Shown in pieces: positions 755-31,125 of a stretch of DNA of 64,000 nt. Made by a program: the position numbers and the translations under genes. The stretch is from positions 3,094 through 67,093 of the forward strand of contig CAZQZO010000007.1 of assembly GCA_964597855.1 (NCBI GenBank), given 5' to 3'. The notes beneath the pieces are model-generated. The model did no database searches. It saw only the letters and a list, made by a program, of their open reading frames with translations, and was not told the DNA's origin. This stretch comes from an uncultured Halobacteriales archaeon. Lineage in GTDB: Archaea; Halobacteriota; Halobacteria; Halobacteriales; Hikarchaeaceae. Position 1 is the first letter of the stretch, and every line of letters starts with the position of its first letter.

Positions 755-2002
755 ATGAATCCCGGAGATCACGTTCGCGTTTCCCAAAATAATTCTTCGT
801 ATGAAGGAATCTTATTACCTTCCACAAACGACCAGTATCTACTCCTAAAACTATCTGGAGGTTACAATGTTGGGATCTCTTCTAAAGGGGCATCTGTAGA
901 AATTATTAGCCCAAACTCTGCCCAATTTTCTCCCCCTGAAAATAAGTCAGATGATGTCTCAAATATCATATTCGATGAGGACCTTCCTACCATCTCTCTA
1001 ATCACCACAGGAGGGACAATCGCATCCACTATCGACTATCGAACCGGGGCCGTAACTTCTCAGTTCGATGTAACTGATATACTGCGATCTATACCTGATC
1101 TATCTGGTCTCGCCAACTATCGTGGAAAAGTTGTCGCTAATATTTTATCAGAGAATATGACACCATCAATTTGGCAGGATCTCGCAAAAGCAATATTTGA
1201 AGAAATAGAAGCCGGGGTCGACGGTGTCATAGTCATGCATGGCACTGACACAATGCAATACACGGCAGCTGCGATTTCTTTTATGATCTGCACCCCTATA
1301 CCTATAATTTTCACAGGGAGCCAACGCTCTTCTGATCGGCCATCTAGCGATAACCTAGTCAATGTAATTTGCGCGGTCGAAGCCGCAAAATCCGCCTGCG
1401 CTGAAGTTTTAATCTGCATGCACTCAAACGACTCCGATAATCATTGCTCTCTCCACCGAGCAACTAGGGCAAGAAAAAACCACACTTCGAAACGAAGCGC
1501 TTTTGCAACAATAGGAAATCTACCCCTCGGGGAAGTCAATTATGACACTCGCAGCGTTACTTACCGAAGAGATCACGACAAACGTGGAGAATTAAAATCT
1601 TCTCTAAAATCCGATCTAGATTTCAATGTTGAACTGATCAAATATACTCCTGGAATGGATGCTAAACTACTCGACGCCTGTTCAGAGAAGTCTGGCATAG
1701 TAATCGAAGGAACTGGCTTAGGCCACATCCACACAGATTTCATCCCACATCTCTCTTCCCTTATTAAAAATGGAACTCATGTTGTCATGACAAGTCAGTG
1801 TATCGAAGGCCGCGTCTGCTCTCGTGTCTACGACACAGGTAGGGATTTACTGGACATTGGTGTAATTGAAGGTGGGGATATGCTCCCTGGAACTGCAAAG
1901 GTAAAATTAATGTGGGCACTTGCCAATACGGACAACCCATCCGAGTCAATGCAGATCTCATTAGCAGGAGAAATTACAGAACCCTCCCGACCCTGGGATT
2001 AA
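755..2002 (+). CDS. gatD: Glu-tRNA(Gln) amidotransferase subunit D
   Basis: N-terminal GatD domain plus asparaginase motifs TGGTIAS, HGTDT, GSQRSSDRPSSD. Confidence 0.95.
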   Translation: MNPGDHVRVSQNNSSYEGILLPSTNDQYLLLKLSGGYNVGISSKGASVEIISPNSAQFSPPENKSDDVSNIIFDEDLPTISLITTGGTIASTIDYRTGAVTSQFDVTDILRSIPDLSGLANYRGKVVANILSENMTPSIWQDLAKAIFEEIEAGVDGVIVMHGTDTMQYTAAAISFMICTPIPIIFTGSQRSSDRPSSDNLVNVICAVEAAKSACAEVLICMHSNDSDNHCSLHRATRARKNHTSKRSAFATIGNLPLGEVNYDTRSVTYRRDHDKRGELKSSLKSDLDFNVELIKYTPGMDAKLLDACSEKSGIVIEGTGLGHIHTDFIPHLSSLIKNGTHVVMTSQCIEGRVCSRVYDTGRDLLDIGVIEGGDMLPGTAKVKLMWALANTDNPSESMQISLAGEITEPSRPWD

Positions 2003-2013
2003 TTATTTATTTA

Positions 2014-2289
2014 TCACCCTCCACTCATAGGGGGAATAATTGCTAGTTCATCATCATTTTCCAATGCCAATTGTGAAAATTTTTCTCCTCTCATTTCTTC
2101 ACCATTACATAGCACTTGAACATGATTCAATACTCCACCTTGCTCATCCATCACCAATTCTCTTAAATTTGGTATCTGATCGAATAGATCTTCCAGCGCA
2201 TCCTCAATTGTGATCCCACTATCCATTCTTATCTCAATTTCTCTCTCCCCTGCAATCTCTGCAAAATTGGCAAAAAGTTTCCATTTCAT
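2014..2289 (-). CDS. samp1: Ubiquitin-like small archaeal modifier protein (SAMP1/MoaD-like)
   Basis: MKWKLFA N-terminus typical of haloarchaeal SAMP1; beta-grasp size; C-terminal PPMSGG di-glycine. Confidence 0.9.
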   Translation of the reverse strand: MKWKLFANFAEIAGEREIEIRMDSGITIEDALEDLFDQIPNLRELVMDEQGGVLNHVQVLCNGEEMRGEKFSQLALENDDELAIIPPMSGG

Positions 2290-2304
2290 GATGATTCAAT
2301 CTAC

Positions 2305-3030
2305 CTAAAGTAATAAACTCGCATCCAATGCTATTTGGCCCATTTCTTGAATACTATCTCGTATTTTTTTCGGAAATTCTTCCCCCTCAGTTTCGCCCTT
2401 TTTAGACCCTTCTACTAAATTCCCATCCACCGTGAGTATGGAACCTGCTTCTATTCCCAATCTCCTGGCAAGCGTCAAAATAACCGAAGTCTCCATCTCA
2501 ATAGATAGCAATCCCGAATTCTCCCATATTTTTACGTACTCTTCTGTCTCTGCATAATATGCATCATTGGTTACTATGGCACCCACATGGAATTTATGAT
2601 CATGTCGTTTTGCCACATCTACCAAAGCAGAAACAACCTGATAATCCGAAACTGCTGGGTATACTTCTGATTCATACCTTTTTGTCGTTCCTTCTTCTTT
2701 AGCAGCCCCTGTAACTATGATAAATTCCCCAGTTTTAATCCCCCTTTGAAGTGCACCTGTTGTTCCCACTCTGATTATTTTCTTCACTCCAACCTTACAA
2801 AGTTCTTCAACGGCTATCGCAGCAGATGGACAACCAATCCCTGTAGAACAAACGGTCAAACCCTTCCCTTTATAATCTATATTGCAAATTTTGTATTCTC
2901 GATTCTCAGAAATAACTTCATATTCATCTGCCAATGCTGCAATCATCTCCACTCGATTAGGATCACCTGGTAGTAATGCAATTTCATTCAACTCCCCCTC
3001 CCCTACGAGCAAGTGTGGCTGTTTTCCCAT
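2305..3030 (-). CDS. Nucleoside phosphorylase (uridine phosphorylase/PNP family)
   Basis: LPGDPNRV, STGIGCPS, RVGTTG and EMET motifs. Confidence 0.9.
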   Translation of the reverse strand: MGKQPHLLVGEGELNEIALLPGDPNRVEMIAALADEYEVISENREYKICNIDYKGKGLTVCSTGIGCPSAAIAVEELCKVGVKKIIRVGTTGALQRGIKTGEFIIVTGAAKEEGTTKRYESEVYPAVSDYQVVSALVDVAKRHDHKFHVGAIVTNDAYYAETEEYVKIWENSGLLSIEMETSVILTLARRLGIEAGSILTVDGNLVEGSKKGETEGEEFPKKIRDSIQEMGQIALDASLLL

Positions 3031-3040
3031 ATTCTTATTT

Positions 3041-3862
3041 CTATCCTACTACTGAATATAATATCAGGTTATGCATTCCTGGACCAATACCAATCGCAAT
3101 CATCACTATTAACAAAATTCTTGCATACAAAGGCTTTTCTTTTGTATAATCCACAAACAAAAAAACTAGGGCAATCGCCAATACGATCTTAACACATACA
3201 AACAACCAACTCACACCAATAATATTCGCAACGGGGAGTGATGCACCAATGTCTAATATCATTTGGGAAATTGGGGTCTGCTCCTTAAAATTCAATATGT
3301 CAATCCCAATTGCCGTAGATGTCCCATCTAGAGTCTGTCCTATGATAACTAGCAAACCAGTGCTTCCCAACACCTTTGGAATTTCTGCACTTTTTCTTTT
3401 CACCGCCTCCCACACTAAAATAGAAACAACCAATGCAACCACCAACCCCACGATCGACCATGCTGGATTGGTCCACCCCTCTCTGGATAAAACCACCATC
3501 GTAGTGCCAAACCCAATCAATCCACTCCCCATCAGAATTTTTTCTGCAATCTGATCCCTTTTAAGGAGCAAAACCACCGACCAGACACAACCCAATATGA
3601 CAAACGTAGTGATGTACACTGTTGGGTTCCCTAGTAGGAATGAAATACTTTCTAACTTTCCGTATTCTTTCAAACCCATCACACCCACGACACGCAAACC
3701 CGCACCAAATGCCATCCATGGAATCAAAGATATAATGATATCCTCATCGATTCTTATCTCACATTTCCAAAGAACCATTGCAATTATTCCTGCACAAATT
3801 AAGATCCCAATCAGATATGGGGCCGAGGGAATTCCAAAATCTGAAGGAAGGATATCTAACAT
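3041..3862 (-). CDS. DUF63-family integral membrane protein
   Basis: Multiple hydrophobic helices; PWMAFG, QTLDGTST, IGPGMHN motifs resemble archaeal DUF63. Confidence 0.7.
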   Translation of the reverse strand: MLDILPSDFGIPSAPYLIGILICAGIIAMVLWKCEIRIDEDIIISLIPWMAFGAGLRVVGVMGLKEYGKLESISFLLGNPTVYITTFVILGCVWSVVLLLKRDQIAEKILMGSGLIGFGTTMVVLSREGWTNPAWSIVGLVVALVVSILVWEAVKRKSAEIPKVLGSTGLLVIIGQTLDGTSTAIGIDILNFKEQTPISQMILDIGASLPVANIIGVSWLFVCVKIVLAIALVFLFVDYTKEKPLYARILLIVMIAIGIGPGMHNLILYSVVG

Positions 3863-3951
3863 ACCCGTTATTATTTCGGATACCCCAAAGCCATTACGAC
3901 TATGAGAATACCGTCGTGTTTTTGTTCCCCCTGATAATACATCTAATCACA

Positions 3952-5202
3952 ATGGCTTCGTATCACATCGAAACTTATGGATGCACAGCCAATCAAGGAG
4001 AAAGTAAACTAATTGAACAGTTACTTCGCGACGCAGGACATTATAAAGTCGAAAACCCCGAATCCGCAGACGTAGCAATTCTAAACACCTGTACTGTCAT
4101 AGAAAAAACTGAACAAACGATGTTGTCTAGGGCGAAAGAACTAGAATCTCTAGTATCTGATCTAATCGTCACCGGATGTCTCGCACTCGCCCAGCCCGAT
4201 CTCATCCACGAATCTGGGATCGACGCTCGTGTATGTGGATGGGATGAAGTACCTCTGGCCGTTGGAAATGGCGAGTGCCCCACAACTACAAAAGACACGC
4301 TACCCATCATAGATGGTGTAATTGGAATCCTGCCCATCGCCCGCGGATGCATGTCTGATTGTTCTTATTGCATCACAAAAAAAGCAACAGGAAAAATCGA
4401 ATCTCCACCTATCGCAGAAAATGTTTCTAAAGCCCGAAATTTAATAAAAGCCGGAGCAAAAGAAATCCGAGTAACTGGACAGGATACTGGAGTATACGGA
4501 TGGGACCTTGGAGAGCGATTGTTGGATCAGTTACTCGACGAAATTTGTGAACTCCCCGGTGATTTTCGTGTTCGATTAGGAATGGCGAACCCTAAAGGAA
4601 TTCATGGCATTTGCAAATCTCTTGCAAACGTGTTCTCTAAACATGAAAAACTCTATGATTTTATCCATGCACCTGTGCAATCTGGATCCAATACAGTTCT
4701 AGGTCATATGCGACGCCAACACCAAGTAAACGAATTTAGAGACATCGTGTCTATTTTCAATCAACATTTAGATCATTGGACTCTAGCGACGGATTTCATT
4801 GTTGGATTCCCAACCGAAACAACCGAAGATCACCAACAATCACTAAATCTAATACGAGAAGTCCAGCCGGAGCGAATTAATATAACACGATTTTCTAAAC
4901 GCCCCGGTACCGATGCAGCAAAATTAAAAGGTCTTGGGGGGACTCTTAAAAAACAACGTTCATCTGAAATGACACAACTTAAACTCGAAATAACTTCCCA
5001 AGCATACCGATCTATGATTGGAACTCGCCACACTCTTCTTGCGGTTGAACCTGGGATCAATGGCTCTATGAAGTGTAGGGATGAGGCATATCGCCAGGTA
5101 ATAATAAAGGATTTTGAAGATTATGGAATTACCCCAGGAACGTTCATACAGTCGCAGATAGTTTCCTCTGAACACGTTTATGCGTTCGCCGAACCAGTGT
5201 AG
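3952..5202 (+). CDS. Radical-SAM tRNA methylthiotransferase (MiaB-like, e-MtaB type)
   Basis: ETYGC..N and NTC N-terminal UPF0004 domain; CMSDCSYC radical-SAM motif; C-terminal TRAM domain. Start moved to ATG 3952 because the longer ORF overlaps the divergent gene. Confidence 0.9.
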   Translation: MASYHIETYGCTANQGESKLIEQLLRDAGHYKVENPESADVAILNTCTVIEKTEQTMLSRAKELESLVSDLIVTGCLALAQPDLIHESGIDARVCGWDEVPLAVGNGECPTTTKDTLPIIDGVIGILPIARGCMSDCSYCITKKATGKIESPPIAENVSKARNLIKAGAKEIRVTGQDTGVYGWDLGERLLDQLLDEICELPGDFRVRLGMANPKGIHGICKSLANVFSKHEKLYDFIHAPVQSGSNTVLGHMRRQHQVNEFRDIVSIFNQHLDHWTLATDFIVGFPTETTEDHQQSLNLIREVQPERINITRFSKRPGTDAAKLKGLGGTLKKQRSSEMTQLKLEITSQAYRSMIGTRHTLLAVEPGINGSMKCRDEAYRQVIIKDFEDYGITPGTFIQSQIVSSEHVYAFAEPV

Positions 5203-5209
5203 TTTATTT

Positions 5210-6028
5210 TCACTCTTTATAAATTTGTTTTCCCAATTCGTAAAACATATTCCCCACCAGCGATTGTCCCCCATCTGCAACTAGTACTTCTCCTGTGATC
5301 ACCTCAGCCGCAGGAGAACATAGGTATAACACTTGCTGGGCCATTTGTTCCACACTAGCTATTCCTCCCATGGGGATGCTATTTTCCAATCTATTAACTA
5401 TCGATTCATCTCCCAATAAATTATCCCTTACACCTTCTGTCAATACCACTCCTGGACACATGGCATTCACTCTTATGTCGTGCTTTGCCCATTCAAGCGC
5501 TAGTGTCCTTGTCAAGTTGAGAACACCCGCTTTGGCAGCACCAGAATGACCAACATACGGCGCCGCATTCCACGCATAGTTAGCAATTATATTCACAATT
5601 GATCCACCATTCTCCTTTAACAAAGGAAAGCATTTTTTCGAAACTCTAAATGTTCCATCTAGTACTATGTCTACAACCGCCCTCCACCCATTTTCACTAA
5701 GATCTTCTATTGGACAAAAAAAGTTCCCTGCGGCATTGTTCACTAATATGTCCATACTTCCCCATTCCTTCTCCATAAAATTCACCACTTCGTCTACGCT
5801 CGATTTTTCTCTGACATCCATGACTTTCCATAGTATTGATTTCCCTGTTAGTTCCTTCAATTTTTCAGATGCCAATTCTAATCGTTCAGCATTTCTAGAT
5901 GCTATAAAAACATCTGCTCCATGTTCTAAAAAAGATCTTGCAAACCCAAGACCCATCCCCGTTGCACCTCCTGTTATGAACACTTTTTTTTCTTCAAATA
6001 GTTCCTCTTTAAACACACTTTCATTCAT
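5210..6028 (-). CDS. SDR oxidoreductase, 2,4-dienoyl-CoA reductase-like
   Basis: TGGATGMG, NNAAGNF and HSGAAK (His in place of the usual SDR Tyr). Confidence 0.85.
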   Translation of the reverse strand: MNESVFKEELFEEKKVFITGGATGMGLGFARSFLEHGADVFIASRNAERLELASEKLKELTGKSILWKVMDVREKSSVDEVVNFMEKEWGSMDILVNNAAGNFFCPIEDLSENGWRAVVDIVLDGTFRVSKKCFPLLKENGGSIVNIIANYAWNAAPYVGHSGAAKAGVLNLTRTLALEWAKHDIRVNAMCPGVVLTEGVRDNLLGDESIVNRLENSIPMGGIASVEQMAQQVLYLCSPAAEVITGEVLVADGGQSLVGNMFYELGKQIYKE

Positions 6029-6117
6029 GCATATTACCTCTTAATAACAATCTATCCTCTCCTCAGAGATAAAGACTCAGCATGAACGCCATTCAACTCT
6101 TTGCAAAAAATTCCAAT

Positions 6118-6660
6118 CTATCCACTAATCCAAATTGACTTTTCTTCCCCTTTATTTTCGACTCCCTCTTGTTGCGCAAACGCGTCGTGCAGTTTTTGAT
6201 ATGTTTCTAGCATGCCTTCTACAACGATTTTAGTATCACTTAGAATCGGCATAAAATTAGTATCTCCCTCCCACCTTGGAACAATATGTGTATGCATATG
6301 CTCATTAATCGAACCACCGCTTCCCTTTCCCAGATTTAAACCTGTATTGAATCCTTGTGGATTAAATGCAGTTTCTAACGCTTTTAATGCTCTTACTTTT
6401 AGCCGGGAATGGGAAAGTAACATCTCTTCATTCAGTTCTACCGGAGATCCTATATGTTCCTTGGGAATCACCATTACATGCCCCGGATTATATGGATAAT
6501 TATTCAAAACAACATACGTGTATTCATCTTCAGCAATTACTCCCAACTCCCTGTCTTTCCCTTTTTTGTATATTTCGCAAAATACACATTCGTCAGAAAT
6601 TTCTTTCCAATCCTGTCTAGAAACCCACTCCATTCTCCAAGGGGTAAAGATTTGGTCCAT
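6118..6660 (-). CDS. HIT-family hydrolase (Ap4A phosphorylase-like)
   Basis: CVFC, LNNYPYNPGH, HMHTHIVPRW. Confidence 0.92.
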   Translation of the reverse strand: MDQIFTPWRMEWVSRQDWKEISDECVFCEIYKKGKDRELGVIAEDEYTYVVLNNYPYNPGHVMVIPKEHIGSPVELNEEMLLSHSRLKVRALKALETAFNPQGFNTGLNLGKGSGGSINEHMHTHIVPRWEGDTNFMPILSDTKIVVEGMLETYQKLHDAFAQQEGVENKGEEKSIWISG

Positions 6661-6706
6661 GAGTGGCAGTATATCAGAGAAAGCTTTAGTCTATCTCTCC
6701 CCTTTC

Positions 6707-7597
6707 CTATTTCGTTGTTATCTCGCACCCATTCTTTGTCACAATCACTGTGTGCTCAGCCTGACTCACTAGTTTGTTTTTTTGCTCCCTCAAAACAGGA
6801 TACCCTCTAATGATTCTTGCCATTTTTAACCTCTGTAAAGCGATTTTACCTTGTGATTCTTCCACCCACCTCGCAGCAAAAGGAAGCGTCTTATATCTAT
6901 CTTCAATCAGTGCAACAAGTTCTCTTGACCTTCTCCCTCTGATCGAGCGCCTTTGAATTAAAGAAAATATCTCTTCTTTACCACCTTCCGTTACTTTTCC
7001 CCCTCCTTCTGTAGCAAAAGGTTCAATCGCAACGACATCTCCAATTTCTAATCTCACCCCCGTTTCAATAGCGCAGTTAGGGATGTTTGGTCCTATATGT
7101 GCATCGTACTCTCCCACACCATGGCCCGAAAGATTGATTATCGAATTATATCCCATTCTATCAATTTTCGATTCTATTACTTCTCCTATTTTTCCAACAT
7201 TCACCCCTGGCTCTATCAACTCTAACGCAGCTTTTAATGCCTCCTCTGCAGCCTCCACAAGCTTTGGATTCCCCGATAGGTCCACAGTTTTGGCAGCATC
7301 TGCAATCCAACCATCAACATGAACTCCTATATCTAAACAGATCATTTCCTCCCCAAATTTGGTTTTTTCACCCATACCCGGTGTCGAGTGAGAAGCTTCT
7401 TCATTTATACTTATGTTTACTGGAAATGCTGGTTCTCCTCCCATTTCCCGAATTCTATTTTCTGCAAACTCTGCCACTTCCAAATGAGTCACACCCACTT
7501 CAATTCTCTTCACGGTTTCCGAAAGTGTCTCTGCAAGAATTTTCCCCGCAGCACGATGTTTTTCGTATTTTTCAGATTTAAGATCTACTTCTTCCAC
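6707..7597 (-). CDS. map: Type II methionine aminopeptidase
   Basis: FPVNIS..HSTP, DIGVHVDG..AD, GHG, IEPF, Q.EHT metal ligands. Confidence 0.95.
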   Translation of the reverse strand: MEEVDLKSEKYEKHRAAGKILAETLSETVKRIEVGVTHLEVAEFAENRIREMGGEPAFPVNISINEEASHSTPGMGEKTKFGEEMICLDIGVHVDGWIADAAKTVDLSGNPKLVEAAEEALKAALELIEPGVNVGKIGEVIESKIDRMGYNSIINLSGHGVGEYDAHIGPNIPNCAIETGVRLEIGDVVAIEPFATEGGGKVTEGGKEEIFSLIQRRSIRGRRSRELVALIEDRYKTLPFAARWVEESQGKIALQRLKMARIIRGYPVLREQKNKLVSQAEHTVIVTKNGCEITTK

Positions 7598-7636
7598 AAC
7601 CCACTTCCTATATATTTTTCATTATTTCCCGTAAAT

Positions 7637-8020
7637 TTATACTTCGTCTTCACCGACTAAAACAGCATTCACCTGACCGGTTTGCCCGGGTCTAGATGTC
7701 ACCCTAGCCCTTCCTTCACTGGTGTCTATTATTGCACCCTTTGTAATCACATTACGACGGACGTAATTCAAATTAGCTGCATTCGAAACTACATTCTCTA
7801 TGGTAGCTGTCATTGATTTCGTTCCATCAGAAACAGTGACTTTGTCAATCGATAATGCTCTAACTTTTTGTGATTTACTCCTCGAATTGAATATTTGTCT
7901 CCGCGTCTCTCCAATATTGGTATTTGCTGGCAGCCGACCAAGTTCTGATTTTCTCTTTTTCCGGAAAGAACTCAGCCGTCCACCCGTTTTCGTTCTCTTC
8001 GAACGGCCTTGAAACTGCAT
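7637..8020 (-). CDS. rps8e: 30S ribosomal protein eS8
   Basis: GRSKRTKTGG, RRNVITKGAII, VTSRPGQTG.VNAV. Confidence 0.96.
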   Translation of the reverse strand: MQFQGRSKRTKTGGRLSSFRKKRKSELGRLPANTNIGETRRQIFNSRSKSQKVRALSIDKVTVSDGTKSMTATIENVVSNAANLNYVRRNVITKGAIIDTSEGRARVTSRPGQTGQVNAVLVGEDEV

Positions 8021-8184
8021 ACAACAATCGAATCCCGCGATATATTAAAATGAAGCGGTCGGAATTTTCTGACCAATCAACAAAAATACTTACATAATAT
8101 CCACTTGATCTTATTTTACAATCTTCCTTCCTATTTGACATCTGTCCGATATGTTTCTAATGTGTGGCGTACATTGTGTCTTTA

Positions 8185-8982
8185 ATGACTTTCTTTGAAC
8201 TACTTGCCAACCGGATTAATTCTATAGGTAGTATCTTGTGCATAGGTCTCGACCCCGACCCCTCTCGCCTTCCTCCTCACCTCCAAGACGAAGATCTGCC
8301 ACTTTGGAGTTTCAATCGACGCATCATTGATGCGACCCATTCTTACGCAGCCGCATACAAACCAAATGCAGCTTATTATGAACATTCTGATGGGTGGGAT
8401 TCTTTAGTAGAAACAATAGCATATGCCCATGGAAAAGGAGTCCCGGTTATTTTAGATGCAAAAAGAGCAGACATAGGAAACACGGCACACCAGTATGCGA
8501 ACTTACTCGATATGGCGGACGCAATAACTGCAAATCCCTATATGGGTATTGACTCTCTAAGCCCATTTTTATCTAGATCTGATGCAGGCATTTTCATATT
8601 GTGTCGAACCTCCAATCCTGGTGGGTCCGATCTACAAAATCTAAAATTATCTTCTGGAATGCATCTCTATGAACACGTTGCTCTACTTGCAGACAGTTGG
8701 AATGAACGCGGCAACGTCGGTCTCGTAGTTGGCGCGACCAATCCTGATGAATTGCAACGTGTAAGAAACCTCACCCCGAATCTTCCCTTCCTTGTTCCTG
8801 GTATCGGAGCCCAGAAAGGAGATACAGAATCTGCTGCAAAATATTGTTTATCTTCTAGCAACGCAGGACTGGTTAGTGCTTCTAGAAGTATTATTTTTGC
8901 AGGAGAAGGGGACAATTTTGATAAATCCGCCGCAGAAGCAGCAAAACGGGCTAGAAATTCACTAAACCAATTTCTAAAGTAA
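8185..8982 (+). CDS. pyrF: Orotidine-5'-phosphate decarboxylase
   Basis: LCIGLDP, DAKRADIGNT, RTSNP, VVGAT, PGIGAQ; ATG 8185 preferred as start. Confidence 0.95.
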   Translation: MTFFELLANRINSIGSILCIGLDPDPSRLPPHLQDEDLPLWSFNRRIIDATHSYAAAYKPNAAYYEHSDGWDSLVETIAYAHGKGVPVILDAKRADIGNTAHQYANLLDMADAITANPYMGIDSLSPFLSRSDAGIFILCRTSNPGGSDLQNLKLSSGMHLYEHVALLADSWNERGNVGLVVGATNPDELQRVRNLTPNLPFLVPGIGAQKGDTESAAKYCLSSSNAGLVSASRSIIFAGEGDNFDKSAAEAAKRARNSLNQFLK

Positions 8983-8991
8983 CTTCTGCAT

Positions 8992-10194
8992 TCATGAGTA
9001 GTGCATCAATGCGTCCGACTCTTTAACTTCCTTCAGGTTTTTGTAACCTGCCACCCCAATGGTGCTCTCCAATTCTGCAAGTAGATTTCCAATTATTTCA
9101 TAGACTCCCTGCTCCCCAGCAAGTGTTAGTCCATATGCATAGGGGCGACCGATCTGTACCGCTGTTGCTCCTAGTGCCAACGATTTGAATACATCTGCCC
9201 CTGTCCTAACTCCACTATCGAATAAAATTGGAATCTCTCCACCTACTACCTCGGAAATTTTTCCTAGTGCACCAGCGGCGCCAATTGCCCCATCAATCCT
9301 TCTCCCCCCATGCGAAGACACTACTATTCCCTCTACTCCTATGTCCAATGCCATTTTTGCATCTTCTGGATGTAATACCCCTTTCAATACAATTGGGATA
9401 TCTACAACTTCTCTAAGTTTCTCAACACCCTCCCACGTAAGACTAGCATTATACTTATACTTAGATTTTATTAACTGAGTTGTTTTTTTATCAGCAGAGT
9501 CCCAATTATCAACCTCAATTCCTAATGAATCTGCTACTACTGGATCTGAAAGAAATATGGCCTTGGGGGCATCTTTATCCGTGGACCATTCGCTATTCAC
9601 GCTGTAATTGGTCTCCATAGACCTCGGTTGCCATGCACCCCGTTGACCATCTAGCGTGATGAAAATAGCATCATACCCTGCCTTTTCTGCTCTAGATGCA
9701 AAACTTGCTGTAACTTCCCATTCGTTTATCCAGTATAGTTGAAAAAATTTAGTCATATTCCCCATGACTTCTGCAACCATCTCCAGAGGCGTAGAGGACC
9801 AGGTGCTCAATGTTATCGGGACATTTTGTCTACTCGCTGCCCTTGCAGTACCCAACTCTCCATCTTGGTGGTACATCCTCTGGGATCCTATTGGTGCAAG
9901 TATTAATGGAGTTGGAAGTTTCTTCCCAAATAGCTTAATTCCCATATCTATTTTTGAGACATCTCTTAATATTCGAGGAACAATTTGATACCGATCAAGT
10001 TCTCTTCTATTGGAAGCCATTGTTTGTTCTGCTCCCGCACCGCCCGACGTATATTCATATGGCCCTGGACGAAGTTTCTTCTTTGCCTCCTGTTCTAATT
10101 CCTGGAAACCTATTGGAATCGATTTTCCCCCTCCGGAAATTTCTTTCCTTCGTTTTTTATAAAATCCTTCTTTTTCTGAATTAGTATCTTTCAT
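8992..10194 (-). CDS. FMN-dependent alpha-hydroxy acid oxidase (lactate 2-monooxygenase-like)
   Basis: LAPIG, FFQLYW, LKGV, HGGR, DSGVRTG.D..K, GRP motifs. Confidence 0.9.
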   Translation of the reverse strand: MKDTNSEKEGFYKKRRKEISGGGKSIPIGFQELEQEAKKKLRPGPYEYTSGGAGAEQTMASNRRELDRYQIVPRILRDVSKIDMGIKLFGKKLPTPLILAPIGSQRMYHQDGELGTARAASRQNVPITLSTWSSTPLEMVAEVMGNMTKFFQLYWINEWEVTASFASRAEKAGYDAIFITLDGQRGAWQPRSMETNYSVNSEWSTDKDAPKAIFLSDPVVADSLGIEVDNWDSADKKTTQLIKSKYKYNASLTWEGVEKLREVVDIPIVLKGVLHPEDAKMALDIGVEGIVVSSHGGRRIDGAIGAAGALGKISEVVGGEIPILFDSGVRTGADVFKSLALGATAVQIGRPYAYGLTLAGEQGVYEIIGNLLAELESTIGVAGYKNLKEVKESDALMHYS

Positions 10195-10246
10195 TACTAT
10201 TTTTTGTATTTACAACATATATATCCCTCCCTCTCAAAAAGTACTA

Positions 10247-10573
10247 TTGATGAAACCCATTCCAATTTCCAATCGCTATTTGTATTTGATTCTGATTTTC
10301 TTTGCGATGACTTTCGTTATTTTAGCATCTCAACAATCTGTCCAAAACTTAAGTAGATTTATGAATATTGTAGGATTTATTTTCGCTATTTTAGTTTATA
10401 TGGATATGCGATATTTACAAAATCAACACAATGTCACTTTCAACCTAAAAATAATAGGGCGCTCTATCTCTGAACCCCTTCTCCAATCCATCTATTGCAT
10501 CTCGATATTTCTATATGCACCAGTAGTCCTTGCATATGTCATCCACCGAAGAACTATATTAGTCAATAATTAA
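10247..10573 (+). CDS. Hypothetical membrane protein (about 3 TM helices)
   Basis: 108-aa hydrophobic ORF filling the gap before the tRNA-Gly 3' end; no family recognised. Confidence 0.6.
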   Translation: MMKPIPISNRYLYLILIFFAMTFVILASQQSVQNLSRFMNIVGFIFAILVYMDMRYLQNQHNVTFNLKIIGRSISEPLLQSIYCISIFLYAPVVLAYVIHRRTILVNN

Positions 10574-10591
10574 TGGATTTTCCCCTTCCCA

Positions 10592-10662
10592 TGCGAAAGC
10601 CGGGATTCGAACCCGGGTTGCGACCTTGGCAAGGTCACGTGATACCACTACACTACTATCGC
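10592..10662 (-). tRNA. tRNA-Gly(GCC), no intron, CCA not encoded
   Basis: GCGATAG TA GTG..CAC G TGACC TTGCCAA GGTCG CAAC CCGGG TTCGAAT CCCGG CTTTCGC A folds as a cloverleaf. Confidence 0.96.
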
Positions 10663-10688
10663 CAGTAGCAAATGTCAACTTCGTTATA

Positions 10689-10702
10689 CATAAAAGGCTT
10701 AC
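10689..10702 (-). promoter_or_regulatory. Probable BRE/TATA promoter of tRNA-Gly
   Basis: Minus strand reads AAGCCTTTTATG about 28-35 nt upstream of the mature 5' end. Confidence 0.55.
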
Positions 10703-10836
10703 GAACGATACTTCCAATTCTCTCCTCCAATTCTCTCCCGCCCCTTTCTTAAAACAAATTTTATAGTTCTCCAAAACATGACTCAAAATAGCATTTCCGT
10801 GCGACTGCGGCACATGGTGTGCATCAAAGCGCCACC

Positions 10837-10900
10837 CTTATACGGGCTGAGATCTGAAAATATCGCTACAGTCTAGTGGTATGATAACTAAGACGCTGTA
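10837..10900 (+). promoter_or_regulatory. TATA box (CTTATA) and hairpin-forming 5' leader of the ribosomal protein operon
   Basis: CTTATA at 10837-10842; TACAG(10867-71)/CTGTA(10896-900) closes a stem ending at the ATG at 10901. Confidence 0.5.
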
Positions 10901-11731
10901 ATGACTCGAACAGTTCTCGTACCTTCTTCGCTCACCCGGGAAACCGAGGATATGCGAATGGCGACTCTGAAAATAGGCTACATAGCCCGTGCGGCTGCCA
11001 TTTTCAACATAGATCGCATTTGCGTTTTCCCCGATCCCCTGGGTGAAGGCGATTTAGGTATGGAATTTATCAGCACCGTTTTGGGATACGCTGTGACTCC
11101 TCCGTATCTTCGTAAAGAAATATGGGGGCAGCGCCCAGAATTGGCTTATGCTGGAGTCTTACCACCTCTTAGAATCTTACCACAGGCCGGCTCTGGATCA
11201 GAAGATTCAGAGTCGTTAAGACAAGGAATAGTGACCCAGGTCGGACCTGATAATCGCGTTTGGGTAATTTGCGGACTGCAAAACCCAATTTCCCTAACAA
11301 TCCCCACTAATATGGATATTGTAGAGGGACAACGCGTTTCTGTCAGAATATCTTCCGAAAAACCAGTCCGGGCTCGACTACTGACCGATTCTATACCAGG
11401 AATCTTAGTCGAGAACACCGATCTAGAATCTGCATTAGAACGTAATGATGCGGGAGTTAGAATCGCTGCATCCCGGTATGGGAATCCACTCGAAAATAAG
11501 AACCTCGATGATCTTATTACTCGAGTAAATCGGGAGGGAATGACAGTTGCATTTGGGGCCCCCGGCAGGGGTTTGCCAACGATTCTTGGGTTAGACCCCA
11601 TAGAAATACTTGAGCCAGATATCCCTGGCCCCAAGTTCGATTGCTGGCTCAATACAATTCCAAACCAAGGCAGTGAAACGGTGCGAACTGAAGAGGCAAT
11701 GATAGCCTCTCTCGCATTGTTCTCACTCTAA
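10901..11731 (+). CDS. SPOUT RNA methyltransferase (DUF171/C9orf114 family)
   Basis: IGYIARAAAIF, YAVTPPYLRK, GVLPPL, NTIPNQGSETVRTEEA; usual position at the head of the archaeal uL3 operon. Confidence 0.9.
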   Translation: MTRTVLVPSSLTRETEDMRMATLKIGYIARAAAIFNIDRICVFPDPLGEGDLGMEFISTVLGYAVTPPYLRKEIWGQRPELAYAGVLPPLRILPQAGSGSEDSESLRQGIVTQVGPDNRVWVICGLQNPISLTIPTNMDIVEGQRVSVRISSEKPVRARLLTDSIPGILVENTDLESALERNDAGVRIAASRYGNPLENKNLDDLITRVNREGMTVAFGAPGRGLPTILGLDPIEILEPDIPGPKFDCWLNTIPNQGSETVRTEEAMIASLALFSL

Positions 11732-11744
11732 CACACAACCAACC

Positions 11745-12758
11745 ATGCCTAGAACGCATAGACCTCGAAAAGGCTCACTCGCATTTGGCCCCCGAAAACG
11801 CGCGGCGGATCACGTCCCGCGATTTAATTCATGGCCAGAAGGCGACAATGAGCCGAAGCTCCAGGGTTTTGCAGGATATAAAGCCGGAATGACACATATA
11901 GTTGCAACAAATGATCAGCAACATTCTCCTCTTTTTGAAATGGAACAAACATTCCCCGTAACCATTGTTGAAACCCCTCCTATGCATGCTCTTGCCGTTC
12001 GAGCATATGAAAAAACCCCGTATGGACTCTATCCTTTAACCGAAGCATGGGTCGGCGATTATCATGAAACATTGAGCAGGTCTTTATCTCCTCCTAAAAA
12101 ATCCAAATTAGATGAAACGGAGAAAACACTAAGAGAATTATCTGATCAGAATAAAATCGAAGACATACGGATGATAACCCACACTGTTCCATCCTCGATA
12201 TCTGGAATCCCGAAGAAAAAACCAGATTTAATGGAAACAAGAATTGGTGGGGGCTCTATTTCTGAAAGATTGGATTTTGCACTTAATCTCTTACATGATG
12301 GTGGAATCCACAACGTGAGCGATATTTTCTCTGAAGGCGATTACCTTGATGTAACAGGCATCACAAAAGGAAAAGGGACACAAGGACCTGTCAAACGTTG
12401 GGGGGTTCAAAAACGGAAAGGGAAACACTATCGCCAAGGGTTCAAACGACGTATCGGAAATCTCGGACCTTGGAATCCCTCCCGTGTACGATCTACTGTA
12501 CCTCAACAGGGTCAAACCGGTTACCACCAACGCACAGAATATAACAAACGCCTCGTTTCTATCGGAAATGCAGATGAGGCATCTGTATCTGGTGGATTCA
12601 TAGGATATGGAGAAGTTAATGGGCCACATATACTCGTACATGGTTCTCTGCCCGGTCCTCAAAAACGTCTATTGAGATTCCGTCCAGCAATACGACCAAA
12701 TAGGCTTAATTCACCCATTGAAATTCATCACATTTCCAAAGCATCAAATCAAGGATAA
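11745..12758 (+). CDS. rpl3: 50S ribosomal protein uL3
   Basis: PRKGSLAFGPRKRA, GYKAGMTH, TKGKGTQGPVKRWG. Confidence 0.98.
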   Translation: MPRTHRPRKGSLAFGPRKRAADHVPRFNSWPEGDNEPKLQGFAGYKAGMTHIVATNDQQHSPLFEMEQTFPVTIVETPPMHALAVRAYEKTPYGLYPLTEAWVGDYHETLSRSLSPPKKSKLDETEKTLRELSDQNKIEDIRMITHTVPSSISGIPKKKPDLMETRIGGGSISERLDFALNLLHDGGIHNVSDIFSEGDYLDVTGITKGKGTQGPVKRWGVQKRKGKHYRQGFKRRIGNLGPWNPSRVRSTVPQQGQTGYHQRTEYNKRLVSIGNADEASVSGGFIGYGEVNGPHILVHGSLPGPQKRLLRFRPAIRPNRLNSPIEIHHISKASNQG

Positions 12759-14924: not shown

Positions 14925-15383
14925 ATGGGAATCAACTATTCAGTACAATCCGATCAAAACACAACTGCTAGGGCAATAATCCGCAACCAACCAATAAGCC
15001 CAAAACACTCCCGAGAAATATCCCGGGCAATTAAAGGAAAAACAACGTCCGATGCTATATCTTATTTAGAAGATGTAATAGCTCTAAAACGGTCTATTCC
15101 CTTCCGAACCCATAATGCTGGAGTAGGGCACCGAAAAGATATAATTGGTTGGGATGCTGGAAGGTATCCTCAAAAAGCCTCTCGTGCATTCTTAAAATTA
15201 TTAACTAACGCCATGGGGAATGCAGACAACAAAGGTCTAGATTCACCCTCTATGAAGATAGTGCATGTTGCAGCGCATAAAGTTGGGGTCCGGCGTGGCA
15301 GAAAACCCAGGGCGTTCGGCCGTGCCACCCCTTGGAACACAACACTAGTAGACGTTGAACTAATTTTGGAGGCTGATTCCTAA
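14925..15383 (+). CDS. rpl22: 50S ribosomal protein uL22
   Basis: ISPKHSREI, GRYPQKA, PRAFGRATP; ATG 14925 preferred as start. Confidence 0.97.
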   Translation: MGINYSVQSDQNTTARAIIRNQPISPKHSREISRAIKGKTTSDAISYLEDVIALKRSIPFRTHNAGVGHRKDIIGWDAGRYPQKASRAFLKLLTNAMGNADNKGLDSPSMKIVHVAAHKVGVRRGRKPRAFGRATPWNTTLVDVELILEADS

Positions 15384-16336
15384 TGGCAGATGAACATCAA
15401 TTCATACAAAAAGGACTGAAAAATTCTCAAATAAATGAGTATCTAGAGTCTACACTTCAACGTGCAGGATATGGGGGCATGGAAATAGCAAAAACTCCCA
15501 TGGGGACTCAAATCGTACTCAAAGCAGAAAAACCTGGGATGGTAATTGGAAAAAGTGGCAAAAAAATACGTGAGATAACCGCAGCTCTCAAAGCCAATTT
15601 CGATCTAGACGATCCCCAAATAGATGTACAAGAGATCAACGAACCCGATCTGAACGCACAAATAGTTGCTGATAGATTGGCCAACGCATTGGAACGTGGC
15701 TGGTATTTCCGAAAAGCGGGCCACACAACAGTAGACCGAATTATGTCCTCAGGAGCACTAGGTGCAGAAATCGTTTTATCCGGAAAAGTTACTGGGGCAC
15801 GTGGCAGAGTTGAAAAATTCAATCGCGGATATATCAAACATAATGGTGAACCTGCCGCAGAAATAGTCGATCGGGGCCAATCCGTGGCAATACTCAAACT
15901 AGGTACTATCGGAGTAAATGTAAAAATCATCCCTCCTGGTGCCCAACTGCCTGACGATTTCAGAATCCTTGACACAATCCCTGGTGAAGAAGAACCAACT
16001 GAATCTGATTCTGGTCCAGAAACCGAGGCAATAGATGATCTATTGGCCCCAACACCCGAATCTACAGAACCTACAGATGATTCTGATCCCGCACCCGCTG
16101 TAGAAGAAATAATAGTGGAAAAAGAGGCACAATCCCCTCCTAAGGAAGAAACCAATCTCAAACTAACAGATCTTCCAGGTGTCGGCCCTTCAAAAGCCCA
16201 AGCACTCGAAGAAGCAGGATTCGATACTATCGAGGCACTACAAGCCGCAGGAGTAACCGATCTCGCTGCAGTTCCAGGAATCAGTGAAAATCTCGCCGAG
16301 AAAATCAAAACGTCTCTTGATAAAGGTGATAATTGA
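15383..16336 (+). CDS. rps3: 30S ribosomal protein uS3 with acidic Pro-rich linker and C-terminal helix-hairpin-helix module
   Basis: KH domain (PGMVIGKSG) and uS3 C-domain to about aa 200; linker; then [12 protein letters not shown]...[15 protein letters not shown]. Confidence 0.97.
16154..16305 (+). repeat. 152-bp perfect direct repeat, copy 1 (HhH module in rps3)
   Basis: AATCTCAAACTAACAGATCTTCC...GAAAATCTCGCCGAGAAAAT, compared base by base with 20270-20421: no mismatch found. Confidence 0.97.
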
Positions 16337-16554
16337 TGGCTTCTCTCCGACCCTCTGAAATTAGAGATATGACCTCTGAAGAAAGGCAATCCGAACTCGA
16401 GAAGTTGTCTACAGAATTATTGAATGCGCGTGCAATACAATTTGCTGGAGGTTCCTCCGACCACCCTGGATTGGCTCGGGAATTACGCCGAACAATAGCT
16501 AGAATCAAAACTATTCAAAAAGAACAAGAAACCACAGATGAGGTCTCCTCATGA
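16336..16554 (+). CDS. rpl29: 50S ribosomal protein uL29
   Basis: LRPSEIRDM...[11 protein letters not shown]; ATG overlaps the rps3 TGA. Confidence 0.96.
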
Positions 16555-20260: not shown

Positions 20261-21190
20261 ATGTCTGGTAATCTCAAACTAACAGATCTTCCAGGTGTCG
20301 GCCCTTCAAAAGCCCAAGCACTCGAAGAAGCAGGATTCGATACTATCGAGGCACTACAAGCCGCAGGAGTAACCGATCTCGCTGCAGTTCCAGGAATCAG
20401 TGAAAATCTCGCCGAGAAAATAAAGGAAGCAGTTCAAACATTGGAACAAGAAACCCCCTCTGCAGATCCGCCCTCTGAACCAGTTCCTACTGATTCAAAC
20501 GACGATTTCCTAAGTATAAGTGGAATCACTCCTGCCCGTGCAGATTCTCTCCGTGCAGCTGGATTTAAGACCATAGACGATATCACAAACGCGAGCCAAG
20601 ATGAGCTCTCTTCGATTGAAGGAATAAGCACTGCTTTAGCAGCTAGAATAAAAGCCAGCATAGGTGATATAGATCTTGAAGAAAAAGTAACTCCCCCCAC
20701 GACGCCACCCGTTGAAGACACTCCCGATCCCACCGCAGTTGAACTTCGCCCCCGTGGACATGTTGGAAAACTTCCTGAACTAGGCCCCAAAGACAAACGA
20801 TTATTGGCCCAAAAACAACGCGAAGGAAAACCAACTTTCAATCGCCAAGACGGCCATATGAAAAAAAGACTCACTAAGAATAAACACAAGTCAGTTTGGA
20901 GAAGACCTCGCGGAACGCATTCCAAACAACGACGAAGAAGAGGGGGACACGGAGAGGTTGTTCGAGCTGGGTATCGGACTCCCGTTTCTGTTCGCGGTCT
21001 CCATGCTAGTGGATTTAAAGAGGTTCACGTCCACCGGCCTGAAGATTTATCCGATATCGACCCGGCCATTGAAGCCATCCGTATTGCGGCATCTGTTGGC
21101 AACCGAAAACGAGAACGAATCGAAGATATCGCAGAGGAAAATGGAATCCGCGTCCTTAACCCCTCTTACGAAGAGGTGAGTCTACAATGA
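20261..21190 (+). CDS. rpl32e: 50S ribosomal protein eL32 with two N-terminal helix-hairpin-helix modules
   Basis: HhH modules at about aa 4-55 and 83-131; eL32 core (WRRPRG..SK, GYRTP, RGLHASG, VLN) in the last ~130 aa. Confidence 0.96.
   Translation: MSGNLKLTDLPGVGPSKAQALEEAGFDTIEALQAAGVTDLAAVPGISENLAEKIKEAVQTLEQETPSADPPSEPVPTDSNDDFLSISGITPARADSLRAAGFKTIDDITNASQDELSSIEGISTALAARIKASIGDIDLEEKVTPPTTPPVEDTPDPTAVELRPRGHVGKLPELGPKDKRLLAQKQREGKPTFNRQDGHMKKRLTKNKHKSVWRRPRGTHSKQRRRRGGHGEVVRAGYRTPVSVRGLHASGFKEVHVHRPEDLSDIDPAIEAIRIAASVGNRKRERIEDIAEENGIRVLNPSYEEVSLQ
20270..20421 (+). repeat. 152-bp perfect direct repeat, copy 2 (first HhH module in rpl32e)
   Basis: Identical to 16154-16305; flanks differ immediately (ACC vs GGT before; C vs A after). 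Confidence 0.97.
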
Positions 21191-31080: not shown

Positions 31081-31125
31081 TCTTCTCAAATTTCTTTTTC
31101 TATCTCTTCTAAACTATAGTTTGAT

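What the first reader, a model, noticed from the sequence alone, without database searches (positions are those of the whole stretch)
15950..16336. uS3 carries a tethered helix-hairpin-helix domain
Seen: after the uS3 core comes a ~55-aa acidic Pro-rich linker and then a double-HhH module ([21 protein letters not shown]...[14 protein letters not shown]). Known: uS3 lines the mRNA entry channel; this HhH fold also occurs in the RadA/Rad51 N-terminus, NusA AR domains and RNAP alpha-CTD and binds nucleic acid or protein. I recall acidic uS3 tails in haloarchaea but not a folded HhH end. Inference: a flexible HhH arm at the mRNA entrance could contact nascent mRNA or RNA polymerase (transcription-translation coupling), or pair with the identical module on eL32.
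Basis: partly seen in the sequence, partly recalled or inferred. Interest (0 to 1): 0.68.

Follow-up and report, generated by a model that had tools for sequence, protein, structure and literature searches.

The report
uS3 carries eL32's helix-hairpin-helix module
In this marine archaeon, small-subunit ribosomal protein uS3 ends in a folded helix-hairpin-helix domain on a long flexible tether; the domain is a DNA-identical copy of one on large-subunit protein eL32, kept identical by gene conversion, and what it binds is unknown.

Summary
The uS3 gene (15383-16336) encodes a core, a 62-residue acidic Pro-rich tether, and a C-terminal (HhH)2 domain (Pfam HHH_5, E 1e-14). The domain model has pLDDT 82 and is closest to the RadA/Rad51 N-terminal domain. 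DNA and RNA contigs from independent public runs confirm the gene.

The window comes from a Marine Group IV (Hikarchaeia) archaeon. New here:

- The module is a 152-nt exact copy of the first HhH of eL32, 4 kb downstream.
- In five MG-IV genomes the two copies match within a genome (dS about 0). Between genomes they are only 72-78% identical, except in the close relative HikBin1 (93%). This is recurrent gene conversion.
- The fusion is not unique. It occurs in Halococcus (three cultured species), an uncultured Haloferacaceae-labelled clade, and two Thermoplasmatota lineages.
- Every genome with it also has an HhH-bearing eL32. Most haloarchaea lack it.
- The module is under purifying selection (dN/dS 0.06-0.19).
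- In the non-halophiles the module and tether are neutral to basic.

Function is untested. My best inference is a tethered, sequence-independent nucleic-acid-binding or partner-binding arm near the mRNA entrance. No paper describing it was found. Verdict: a real, conserved, undescribed variant of a ribosomal-protein extension, of moderate to high interest.

The parts
15383..16336 (+). uS3 coding sequence, 317 aa plus stop. The stop TGA overlaps the uL29 ATG at 16336.
   Evidence: ORF list; Pfam KH_2, Ribosomal_S3_C and HHH_5; 100% match to database cluster P0001, 96% to P0002.
15383..15967 (+). uS3 core (aa 1-195): KH domain and S3 C-terminal domain.
   Evidence: Pfam. It is 74-84% identical to haloarchaeal uS3 cores. 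PDB uS3 chains align to aa 1 to about 207.
15968..16153 (+). Flexible tether (aa 196-257): 62 residues, net charge -19, 10 Pro, predicted disordered.
   Evidence: Composition; pLDDT below 50 over residues 192-258; length and sequence vary between relatives.
16100..16114 (+). Short conserved hydrophobic-acidic motif V-E-E-I-I within the tether. It corresponds to E-A-E-E-[IL]-[IL]-x-E-M near the C-terminus of ordinary haloarchaeal uS3.
   Evidence: Alignments A3/A4; E241 is conserved in at least 90% of 24 sequences, including proteins without the fusion.
16154..16318 (+). (HhH)2 domain (aa 258-312), of the RadA/Rad51 N-terminal-domain type.
   Evidence: Pfam HHH_5 E 1.2e-14. Tail model pLDDT 82. 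Foldseek best hit is RadA 1xu4: TM 0.74, rmsd 1.6 A, 46% identity. phmmer against PDB finds Rad51 1pzn (3e-10) and haloarchaeal eL32 (4e-10).
16154..16305 (+). Gene-conversion tract: 152 nt exactly identical to 20270-20421 in eL32.
   Evidence: the repeat finder and alignment. Unitig at about twice the flanking depth with two entries and two exits.
16319..16333 (+). uS3-specific C-terminal end, D-K-G-D-N. Relatives end in KGDN, GGEN or EGEN.
   Evidence: Alignment A4.
20261..21190 (+). eL32 coding sequence (309 aa) with two N-terminal HhH modules. It is the paralogous partner of the uS3 module.
   Evidence: ORF list; Pfam 2x HHH_5 plus Ribosomal_L32e at aa 190-300. H. marismortui L32e aligns only to aa 80-307.
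20270..20434 (+). eL32 HhH module 1, the copy identical to the uS3 module.
   Evidence: tblastn 94.5% over 55 aa; DNA identity.
20498..20662 (+). eL32 HhH module 2. It is the ortholog of the single HhH of Haloarcula marismortui L32e and is only 36% identical to the uS3 module.
   Evidence: tblastn; PDB alignment; module alignment.

Best explanation
**Shown.** uS3 of this Marine Group IV (Hikarchaeia) archaeon is a three-part protein: the universal uS3 core, a disordered acidic Pro-rich tether of about 62 residues, and a folded C-terminal (HhH)2 domain. The domain is a paralog of the N-terminal HhH modules of eL32, which is encoded 4 kb downstream in the same operon. In MG-IV genomes recurrent gene conversion keeps it identical to eL32's first module. 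The fusion is expressed, under purifying selection, and present in several archaeal lineages, always together with an HhH-bearing eL32.

**Inferred.**
- Because uS3 sits on the solvent side of the 30S head at the mRNA entrance (established knowledge), the tether lets the module sweep roughly 100-200 A around that site.
- The module most likely acts as a sequence-independent binder of a nucleic-acid backbone (duplex RNA or DNA), or of a partner it shares with the eL32 modules. That would give the small subunit the same 'fishing-line' arm the large subunit already has.
- Which ligand it binds is not known.
For: **Architecture and reality**
- establish the domains and fold.
- DNA and RNA contigs confirm the sequence.

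**Source organism**
- HikBin1 (Marine Group IV) matches the tail at 90% identity. Other MG-IV MAG contigs end exactly at the repeat.

**Gene conversion**
- In the window, HikBin1 (L009), L001, L005 and L007, the uS3 and eL32-HhH1 copies are 97-100% identical in DNA.
- The same module is 72-78% identical between genomes, or 93% against the close relative HikBin1.
- dS between genomes is 0.27-2.3.
- Tract ends differ from genome to genome.
- HikBin1 carries the same two amino-acid changes in both of its copies.

**Selection**
- dN/dS is 0.06-0.19 for the module.

**Distribution**
- Halococcus dombrowskii and H. morrhuae; H. hamelinensis.
- An uncultured GC-70% clade whose cluster-mates are labelled Haloferacaceae or Haloquadratum sp..
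- Two Thermoplasmatota lineages.
- All 11 genomes examined that carry the fusion also have eL32 with HhH.

**Nucleic-acid lead**
- The closest characterised relative is the RadA/Rad51 N-terminal domain, which binds dsDNA (PMC1964548).
- The position of RadA's second DNA-binding lysine is K or R in most modules, and the next-but-one Lys is invariant.
- In non-halophilic Thermoplasmatota the tether and module are neutral to basic and end in KKLRK or KKRKR.
Against: - No binding was measured and no complex was predicted.
- The MG-IV module has net charge about -4 to -5 and its tether -19. That is unfavourable for nucleic-acid binding at moderate salt.
- RadA's first DNA-binding lysine (K27) is Ala at the equivalent position in this module.
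- (HhH)2 domains also serve as protein-protein modules (NusA AR2, XPF/ERCC1, Hef).
- HhH domains usually bind DNA, not RNA.
- Most haloarchaea do without the uS3 module, so it is not essential to this type of ribosome.
- No eL32 chain appeared among the 50 listed Foldseek matches. The eL32 HhH may therefore be unmodelled in solved ribosomes, which would mean there is no structural hint of a docking site. This was not checked directly.
Confidence: 0.6

Rival explanations
1. Protein-protein adaptor. The tethered (HhH)2 domain recruits a protein partner to the mRNA entrance, such as RNA polymerase, Spt4/5, NusA or a translation or quality-control factor. Alternatively it pairs with the eL32 module, linking subunits or neighbouring ribosomes. 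This would work like NusA AR2 or the RNAP alpha-CTD.
For: - Fold and sequence similarity to NusA AR2 (6ib8_C, TM 0.70) and to RNAP alpha-CTD (1iw7_A, E 1.7e-6).
- The Thermoplasmata version also hits Pfam RNA_pol_A_CTD.
- The MG-IV module is net acidic.
- The fusion strictly co-occurs with HhH-bearing eL32.
- Some (HhH)2 domains form homotypic dimers (Hef 1x2i among the fold hits).
Against: - No partner was identified.
- In Halococcus and the GC-70% clade the uS3 and eL32 modules are only 58-69% identical, so sequence identity is not required.
- The closest relatives (RadA N-terminal domains) are DNA binders.
- The basic C-terminal ends in the Thermoplasmatota versions look like nucleic-acid contacts.
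Confidence: 0.25
2. Neutral passenger. The module was copied onto the end of uS3 by ectopic recombination within the operon and persists because a C-terminal appendage on a flexible tail is harmless. Gene conversion, not selection, keeps it intact.
For: - The distribution is patchy, and most haloarchaea lack the module.
- It sits after a pre-existing tail that already ends at the same conserved motif in proteins without the fusion.
- Conversion from a selected eL32 copy could by itself keep the MG-IV copy intact.
Against: - In Halococcus there is no recent conversion (58-69% identity to the genome's own eL32 modules). Even so, the uS3 module is conserved between a Halococcus-like metagenome locus (L006) and H. 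dombrowskii, with dN/dS 0.19.
- The fusion is retained in at least five lineages across two phyla, with an intact reading frame and intact fold determinants.
Confidence: 0.1
3. Assembly artefact. The HhH at the end of uS3 is a chimera produced by mis-joining at a repeat, or by copying the eL32 sequence.
For: - Repeat-induced errors do occur in this lineage. Several MG-IV MAG contigs break at the repeat.
- One public scaffold joins the end of uL6, an N-gap, uS3-tether sequence and eL32, giving a chimeric eL32 model P0128.
Against: - The same architecture appears in many independent assemblies and in cultured Halococcus genomes.
- The unitig graph and a 4-kb bridging contig fit only the window's arrangement.
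- A single 345-nt RNA contig spans tether, HhH and uL29.
- The unique sequence on both sides of the module is orthologous across genomes.
Confidence: 0.02

Closest known systems
N-terminal HhH extension of haloarchaeal eL32 (e.g. Haloarcula marismortui L32e, 241 aa, PDB 1JJ2/1S72; eL32 of 9L94)
   Same: - Same module family: phmmer E about 4e-10 between the uS3 tail and these chains.
- It also sits on a flexible acidic tether attached to a ribosomal protein.
- In the window the uS3 module is DNA-identical to eL32's first module.
   Different: - It is attached to the C-terminus of a small-subunit protein at the mRNA entrance, not the N-terminus of a large-subunit protein.
- H. marismortui has one module on eL32 and none on uS3.
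- The function of the eL32 extension is itself unknown. My searches found no paper on it.
RadA/Rad51/Dmc1 N-terminal (HhH)2 domain
   Same: - Best structural match: TM 0.74, rmsd 1.6 A, 46% identity over 57 columns.
- Best sequence match in PDB: 1pzn, 3e-10.
- G-hydrophobic hairpins are present, and the second-hairpin K/R is partly conserved.
   Different: - There is no recombinase ATPase core.
- The K27 equivalent is not conserved.
- The domain is attached to a ribosomal protein. It resembles the RadA domain but the protein is not a family member.
RNA polymerase alpha C-terminal domain and NusA AR1/AR2 (tethered (HhH)2 modules of the bacterial transcription machinery)
   Same: - Same fold.
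- Same design principle: a small (HhH)2 domain on a long flexible linker that makes long-range DNA or protein contacts.
- NusA AR2 appears in coupled transcription-translation complexes among the fold hits (8y5l, 6x7k).
   Different: - These are bacterial, on RNAP or NusA rather than on the ribosome.
- Sequence similarity is weaker.
- There is no evidence here of any contact with the transcription machinery.
Lineage-specific extensions of ribosomal proteins: acidic uS3 tails of Halobacteria and the Ala/Pro-rich uS3 tail of PDB 9O17 (species not checked)
   Same: - The extension sits at the C-terminus of uS3 and is disordered.
- The conserved E-E-[IL]-[IL]-x-E-M motif is shared with ordinary haloarchaeal tails.
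   Different: Those tails end without a folded domain. Here a folded domain is appended 10-20 residues after the motif.
Concerted evolution of duplicated prokaryotic genes (e.g. tuf genes, rRNA operons; survey in PMC6053082, abstract only read)
   Same: Paralogs within a genome are more alike than orthologs between genomes. dS is about 0 between the copies, and tract ends vary.
   Different: Only a 150-185-nt domain-coding segment is homogenised, and it lies inside two otherwise unrelated essential genes for different ribosomal subunits.

Membership tests
uS3 (ribosomal protein S3, archaeal/eukaryotic type) | KH type-2 domain followed by the Ribosomal_S3_C domain | tested here: met
   Pfam KH_2 E 3.9e-16 and Ribosomal_S3_C E 4.3e-21, both above their cut-offs. 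PDB uS3 chains match at up to 8.5e-75.
uS3 (ribosomal protein S3, archaeal/eukaryotic type) | Position in the S10-spc operon between uL22 and uL29 | tested here: met
   ORF order uL3-uL4-uL23-uL2-uS19-uL22-uS3-uL29 in the window, and the same order in all relatives.
(HhH)2 domain (Pfam HHH_5, PF14520) | Profile match above the gathering score | tested here: met
   54.9 bits against a cut-off of 27, aa 260-312.
(HhH)2 domain (Pfam HHH_5, PF14520) | Two helix-hairpin-helix motifs with G-hydrophobic-G hairpins joined by a connector helix (five helices) | tested here: met
   Hairpins PGVGP and PGIS are present. The model has five helices and pLDDT 82. Foldseek probability is 1.00 to many (HhH)2 domains.
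(HhH)2 domain (Pfam HHH_5, PF14520) | Sequence-independent binding of a nucleic-acid backbone | not testable with these tools
   Only indirect evidence: a conserved K/R-I-K motif and basic ends in the non-halophile versions.
RadA/Rad51 recombinase | RecA-type ATPase core following the N-terminal (HhH)2 domain | tested here: not met
   The protein ends 5 residues after the module, and Pfam finds no ATPase domain. The similarity is to the domain only.
Haloarchaeal eL32 N-terminal HhH module family | Homology to the HhH of eL32 of Halobacteria | tested here: met
   152-nt identity to the window's own eL32. E about 4e-10 to H. marismortui and 9l94 eL32 N-termini.
Gene conversion / concerted evolution | Within-genome paralog identity exceeds between-genome ortholog identity, including at synonymous sites | tested here: met
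   Five MG-IV genomes show 97-100% identity within a genome. Between genomes identity is 72-78%, or 93% against HikBin1, with dS 0.27-2.3.
Gene conversion / concerted evolution | Sharp tract boundaries that differ between lineages, with orthologous unique flanks | tested here: met
   Tracts are 152 nt (window), about 164 nt (L005), 185 nt (L001) and about 156 nt (L007). The flanks (tether, KGDN end, uL29) are orthologous.
NusA AR / RNAP alpha-CTD coupling modules | Demonstrated contact with RNA polymerase or its factors | not testable with these tools
   Only fold-level similarity.

The most novel reading that the evidence does not exclude
The HhH arms on uS3 (small subunit, mRNA entrance) and eL32 (large subunit) together form a ribosome-borne tethering device. 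It would either hold the lead ribosome to the transcribed DNA or RNA polymerase, as an archaeal physical coupling link built into ribosomal proteins. Or it would latch ribosomes or subunits to each other through homotypic HhH pairing. On this reading, selection for matched surfaces is one reason conversion is tolerated in MG-IV.
Probability: 0.12. Interest if true: 0.85.

Novelty: new variant of a known kind. Interest (0 to 1): 0.6.

Why it matters
- **A new appendage at a key site.** uS3 forms part of the mRNA entry channel. A folded, tethered binding domain there would be a new kind of ribosome appendage in archaea.
- **It can be studied in culture.** The same architecture exists in cultured Halococcus species. 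Cryo-EM, cross-linking, deletion and binding assays are therefore possible, not only work on uncultured marine MAGs.
- **It points to a shared function with eL32.** The strict co-occurrence with HhH-bearing eL32 suggests the two share a function. The eL32 extension appears in the deposited sequence of the first Haloarcula 50S structures, and my searches found no paper on its function.
- **A clean case of module-level concerted evolution.** Two unrelated essential genes share a segment kept identical by conversion.
- **A practical warning.** The 150-185-nt repeat breaks or mis-scaffolds MG-IV assemblies inside the ribosomal-protein operon that is used for phylogenomics.

Tried and rejected
1. 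**Assembly chimera.** Rejected on contig, unitig and RNA evidence and on conservation across assemblies.
2. **A feature unique to this genome or to Hikarchaeia.** Rejected. Halococcus, a Haloferacaceae-labelled clade and Thermoplasmatota also have it.
3. **The uS3 fusion always goes with a two-module eL32.**
   - Holds in the Halobacteria and MG-IV genomes I examined.
   - Fails in Thermoplasmatota, where the short eL32 (243 and 203 aa) appears to carry a single module.
   - The reverse also fails. MAG locus L019 has a two-module eL32 but a plain uS3.
4. **P0128 as evidence for a longer conversion tract running from uS3 into eL32.** Rejected. The scaffold has an N-gap at the junction, so it is a scaffolding chimera.
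5. **The three halobacterial fusion clades as one monophyletic group.** Not supported by uS3-core identities. Each clade is closer to uS3 proteins without the fusion. The core is too short to decide between one ancient gain with losses and repeated gains.
6. **Full-length AlphaFold2 model.** The core came out poorly (pLDDT about 50, shallow alignment), so I used it only for the tether and module.
7. **NJ tree script.** Timed out. Replaced by identity tables.
8. **Literature searches.** I searched for L32e or uS3 with helix-hairpin-helix, for haloarchaeal ribosome cryo-EM, and for charge analyses of halophile r-proteins. None described the module.
9. **Further copies of the module in the window.** None beyond the three.

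Full report
**1. The observation**

- The ORF 15383..16336 (+) encodes a 317-aa protein.
- Pfam finds the two uS3 core domains (KH_2, aa 17-89; Ribosomal_S3_C, aa 99-182). It also finds a C-terminal HHH_5 domain at aa 260-312: E 1.2e-14, 54.9 bits against a gathering score of 27.
- Between them lies a 62-residue segment (aa 196-257, nt 15968-16153) with net charge -19 and 10 prolines. AlphaFold2 gives it pLDDT below 50.
- The module (nt 16154-16318) is confidently folded: pLDDT 75-84 in the full-length model and 82 in a tail-only model, with five helices.
- The uS3 stop codon overlaps the uL29 start.
The only correction is that the tether is about 62 residues rather than about 55.

**2. The fold**

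- Foldseek against the PDB puts the module closest to the N-terminal (HhH)2 domain of archaeal RadA and eukaryotic Rad51 (1xu4 and others: TM 0.74, rmsd 1.6 A, 46% identity over 57 columns). UvrC, Hjm, Hef, DisA and NusA AR2 follow.
- By sequence, the best PDB matches are P. furiosus Rad51 (3e-10) and the N-termini of haloarchaeal eL32 chains (Haloarcula marismortui L32e and the eL32 of 9l94, about 4e-10). RNAP alpha-CTD comes next at 1.7e-6.
- No solved uS3 carries such a domain. The longest archaeal uS3 in the PDB (9o17) has only an Ala/Pro-rich tail.

**3. Is it real?**

- The module shares a 152-nt exact repeat with the 5' end of eL32: 16154-16305 equals 20270-20421. An assembly artefact therefore had to be excluded.
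- Four DNA runs from three studies hold the whole 801-nt stretch, and metatranscriptomes hold it too.
- In Logan's contigs the repeat is a 152-nt unitig at about twice the flanking depth. It has two entries (uS3 tether, or the eL32 upstream region) and two exits (uL29, or the eL32 continuation).
- A 4-kb contig bridges from the uL29 side to the start of the second copy.
- One 345-nt RNA contig runs uninterrupted from tether through HhH into uL29, 16084-16428.
- Only the window's arrangement fits all of these.

**4. Whose genome?**

- A scan of GTDB species representatives with the tail finds HikBin1 (Marine Group IV archaeon, WTZQ01000001.1) at 90% identity. It also finds other MG-IV and 'Halobacteriales' marine MAGs.
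- Several of those contigs end exactly at the repeat.
- The window (42% GC) is therefore from the Hikarchaeia/MG-IV lineage. That lineage is the marine sister group of Halobacteria, according to the title and abstract of PMC7599335 listed.

**5. Concerted evolution**

- I retrieved the operon from four more MG-IV genomes: L001, L005, L007 and L009/HikBin1.
- In every one, the uS3 module is 97-100% identical in DNA to the first HhH of the eL32 of the same genome. The matches are 152 nt exact (window), about 164 nt exact (L005), 181 of 185 (L001) and about 156 nt exact (L007).
- The same module is only 72-78% identical between genomes, or 93% against the close relative HikBin1. dS between genomes is 0.27-2.3.
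- HikBin1 differs from the window by two amino-acid changes, and both are present in both of its copies.
- The tract ends differ from genome to genome. The unique flanks (tether, the -KGDN end, uL29) are orthologous.
- This is the signature of recurrent gene conversion between two segments 4 kb apart in one operon.
- The second eL32 module (20498-20662) is only 36% identical to the uS3 module. It is the ortholog of the single HhH of H. marismortui L32e.

**6. Distribution**

- The full-length search shows the fusion in about 25 database clusters, but not in the cultured Halorubrum, Haloferax, Natrinema or Haladaptatus proteins listed. Those have acidic tails only.
- A profile of the C-terminal half recovers the fusion in cultured Halococcus. 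These are H. dombrowskii WP_244703604.1 and H. morrhuae DSM 1307 WP_004054036.1, plus H. hamelinensis.
- A third halobacterial clade (70% GC, metagenomes only) has cluster-mates labelled Haloferacaceae archaeon or 'Haloquadratum sp.' MAG. Its uL3 is no more than 73% identical to any named species.
- An exhaustive search of 1.8 billion cluster representatives, followed by Pfam, adds two distant fusions at 44% and 38% identity. They lie on contigs whose neighbouring proteins are labelled Thermoplasmatota or Thermoplasmata MAGs.
- All 11 genomes examined that carry the uS3 fusion also have an HhH-bearing eL32. The reverse does not hold: L019, and H. marismortui on general knowledge (its eL32 module is shown; its uS3 was not examined here).
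- In Halococcus and the GC-70% clade the uS3 module is only 58-69% identical to the genome's own eL32 modules. Conversion is therefore not ongoing there, yet the module is retained. Between a Halococcus-like locus and H. dombrowskii, dN/dS is 0.19.
- By uS3-core identity the three halobacterial fusion clades are not each other's closest relatives. I cannot decide between one old gain with many losses and repeated seeding from eL32.
  - For one gain: the module always follows the same conserved tail motif, and MG-IV and Halococcus share a -G-[DE]-N end.
  - For repeated gains or episodic conversion: each uS3 module resembles its own genome's eL32 modules more than it resembles other clades' uS3 modules.

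**7. Mechanism**

*Shown:*
- A folded (HhH)2 domain on a disordered tether at the C-terminus of uS3.
- It is transcribed, under purifying selection (dN/dS 0.06-0.19), and paralogous to the eL32 modules.

*From established knowledge:*
- uS3, with uS4 and uS5, lines the mRNA entry channel on the solvent side of the 30S head.
- A 62-residue tether has a contour length of about 220 A.

*Inferred:*
- The module acts as a tethered arm able to reach incoming mRNA, neighbouring ribosomes or the transcription machinery.
- I favour sequence-independent binding to a nucleic-acid backbone, for three reasons:
  - The closest characterised relatives are dsDNA-binding RadA/Rad51 N-terminal domains. Their binding depends on the second hairpin and on K27 and K60 (PMC1964548).
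  - The K60-equivalent position is K or R in most modules, and the following I-K is invariant.
  - The Thermoplasmatota versions, free of halophilic acid bias, have neutral to basic tethers and modules ending in KKLRK or KKRKR.
- Against this:
  - The MG-IV and Halococcus versions are net acidic.
  - The K27 equivalent is Ala.
  - (HhH)2 domains are also used as protein-protein modules.
The identity with eL32 is not evidence for pairing, because conversion explains it.

**8. Novelty**

- The architecture is present in public protein records, annotated simply as '30S ribosomal protein S3'.
- My full-text searches found no description of an HhH domain on uS3 or on L32e/eL32.
- It is a new variant of a known kind, namely a lineage-specific domain accretion on a ribosomal protein. 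Its origin is unusually clear, and it shows module-level concerted evolution between genes for different ribosomal subunits.

Noticed in passing
window 20261-21190: eL32 here has two N-terminal HhH modules (aa 4-58 and 80-134), whereas Haloarcula marismortui L32e has one. Two-module eL32 also occurs in Halococcus, the GC-70% clade and a MAG (L019) whose uS3 has no HhH. The function of this eL32 extension appears undescribed.
   Followed up: partly
window 16100-16114; alignment A3: A short hydrophobic-acidic motif (VEEII here; E-A-E-E-[IL]-[IL]-x-E-M-E in Haloferax, Halorubrum, Natronococcus, Haladaptatus and Halococcus) is conserved near the end of otherwise variable acidic uS3 tails. This holds whether or not an HhH follows. 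It looks like a short linear docking motif.
   Followed up: partly
L020 about 1975 (scaffold LUOE20-1 ... scaffold_6959); protein P0128: A public scaffold joins the end of uL6, an N-gap, uS3-tether sequence, the repeat and eL32. The result is a chimeric 'eL32' beginning MEKEEQSPPTEE..., in a cluster of 31 member sequences. The repeat causes mis-scaffolding inside the ribosomal-protein operon.
   Followed up: yes
L011, L012, L013, L014, L015 (MG-IV and related MAG contigs): Five MAG contigs end in the uS3 tail at or just before the HhH repeat. The repeat therefore fragments MG-IV assemblies within a locus commonly used for phylogenomic markers.
   Followed up: partly
window 11247-11346 (+): Rfam match to the L4-Archaeoglobi ribosomal-protein leader (RF03135, 55.7 bits against a gathering score of 34.5), about 400 nt upstream of the uL3 start at 11745. 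It is a candidate autoregulatory leader of this operon outside Archaeoglobi.
   Followed up: no
L022 8001-8990 and 13443-14174; L024 4734-5639 and 10030-10641: Non-halophilic Thermoplasmatota contigs carry both uS3-HhH and eL32-HhH. Their tethers are Pro/Ala-rich or Lys-rich and their ends are basic (KKLRK, KKRKR). In L024 the first hairpin of the uS3 module is degenerate (no G-x-G), and the module also hits Pfam RNA_pol_A_CTD.
   Followed up: partly
window 10592-10662 (-) and 31125-31199 (-): tRNA-Gly(GCC) and tRNA-Pro(GGG) genes. Nothing unusual was seen.
   Followed up: no
window 1-12000 and 26000-64000: GC skew is strongly negative (-0.13 to -0.39) outside the ribosomal-protein operon and near zero inside it. 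AT skew is about +0.2 inside the operon. This is probably a coding-strand purine bias with most flanking genes on the minus strand. I did not examine it.
   Followed up: no
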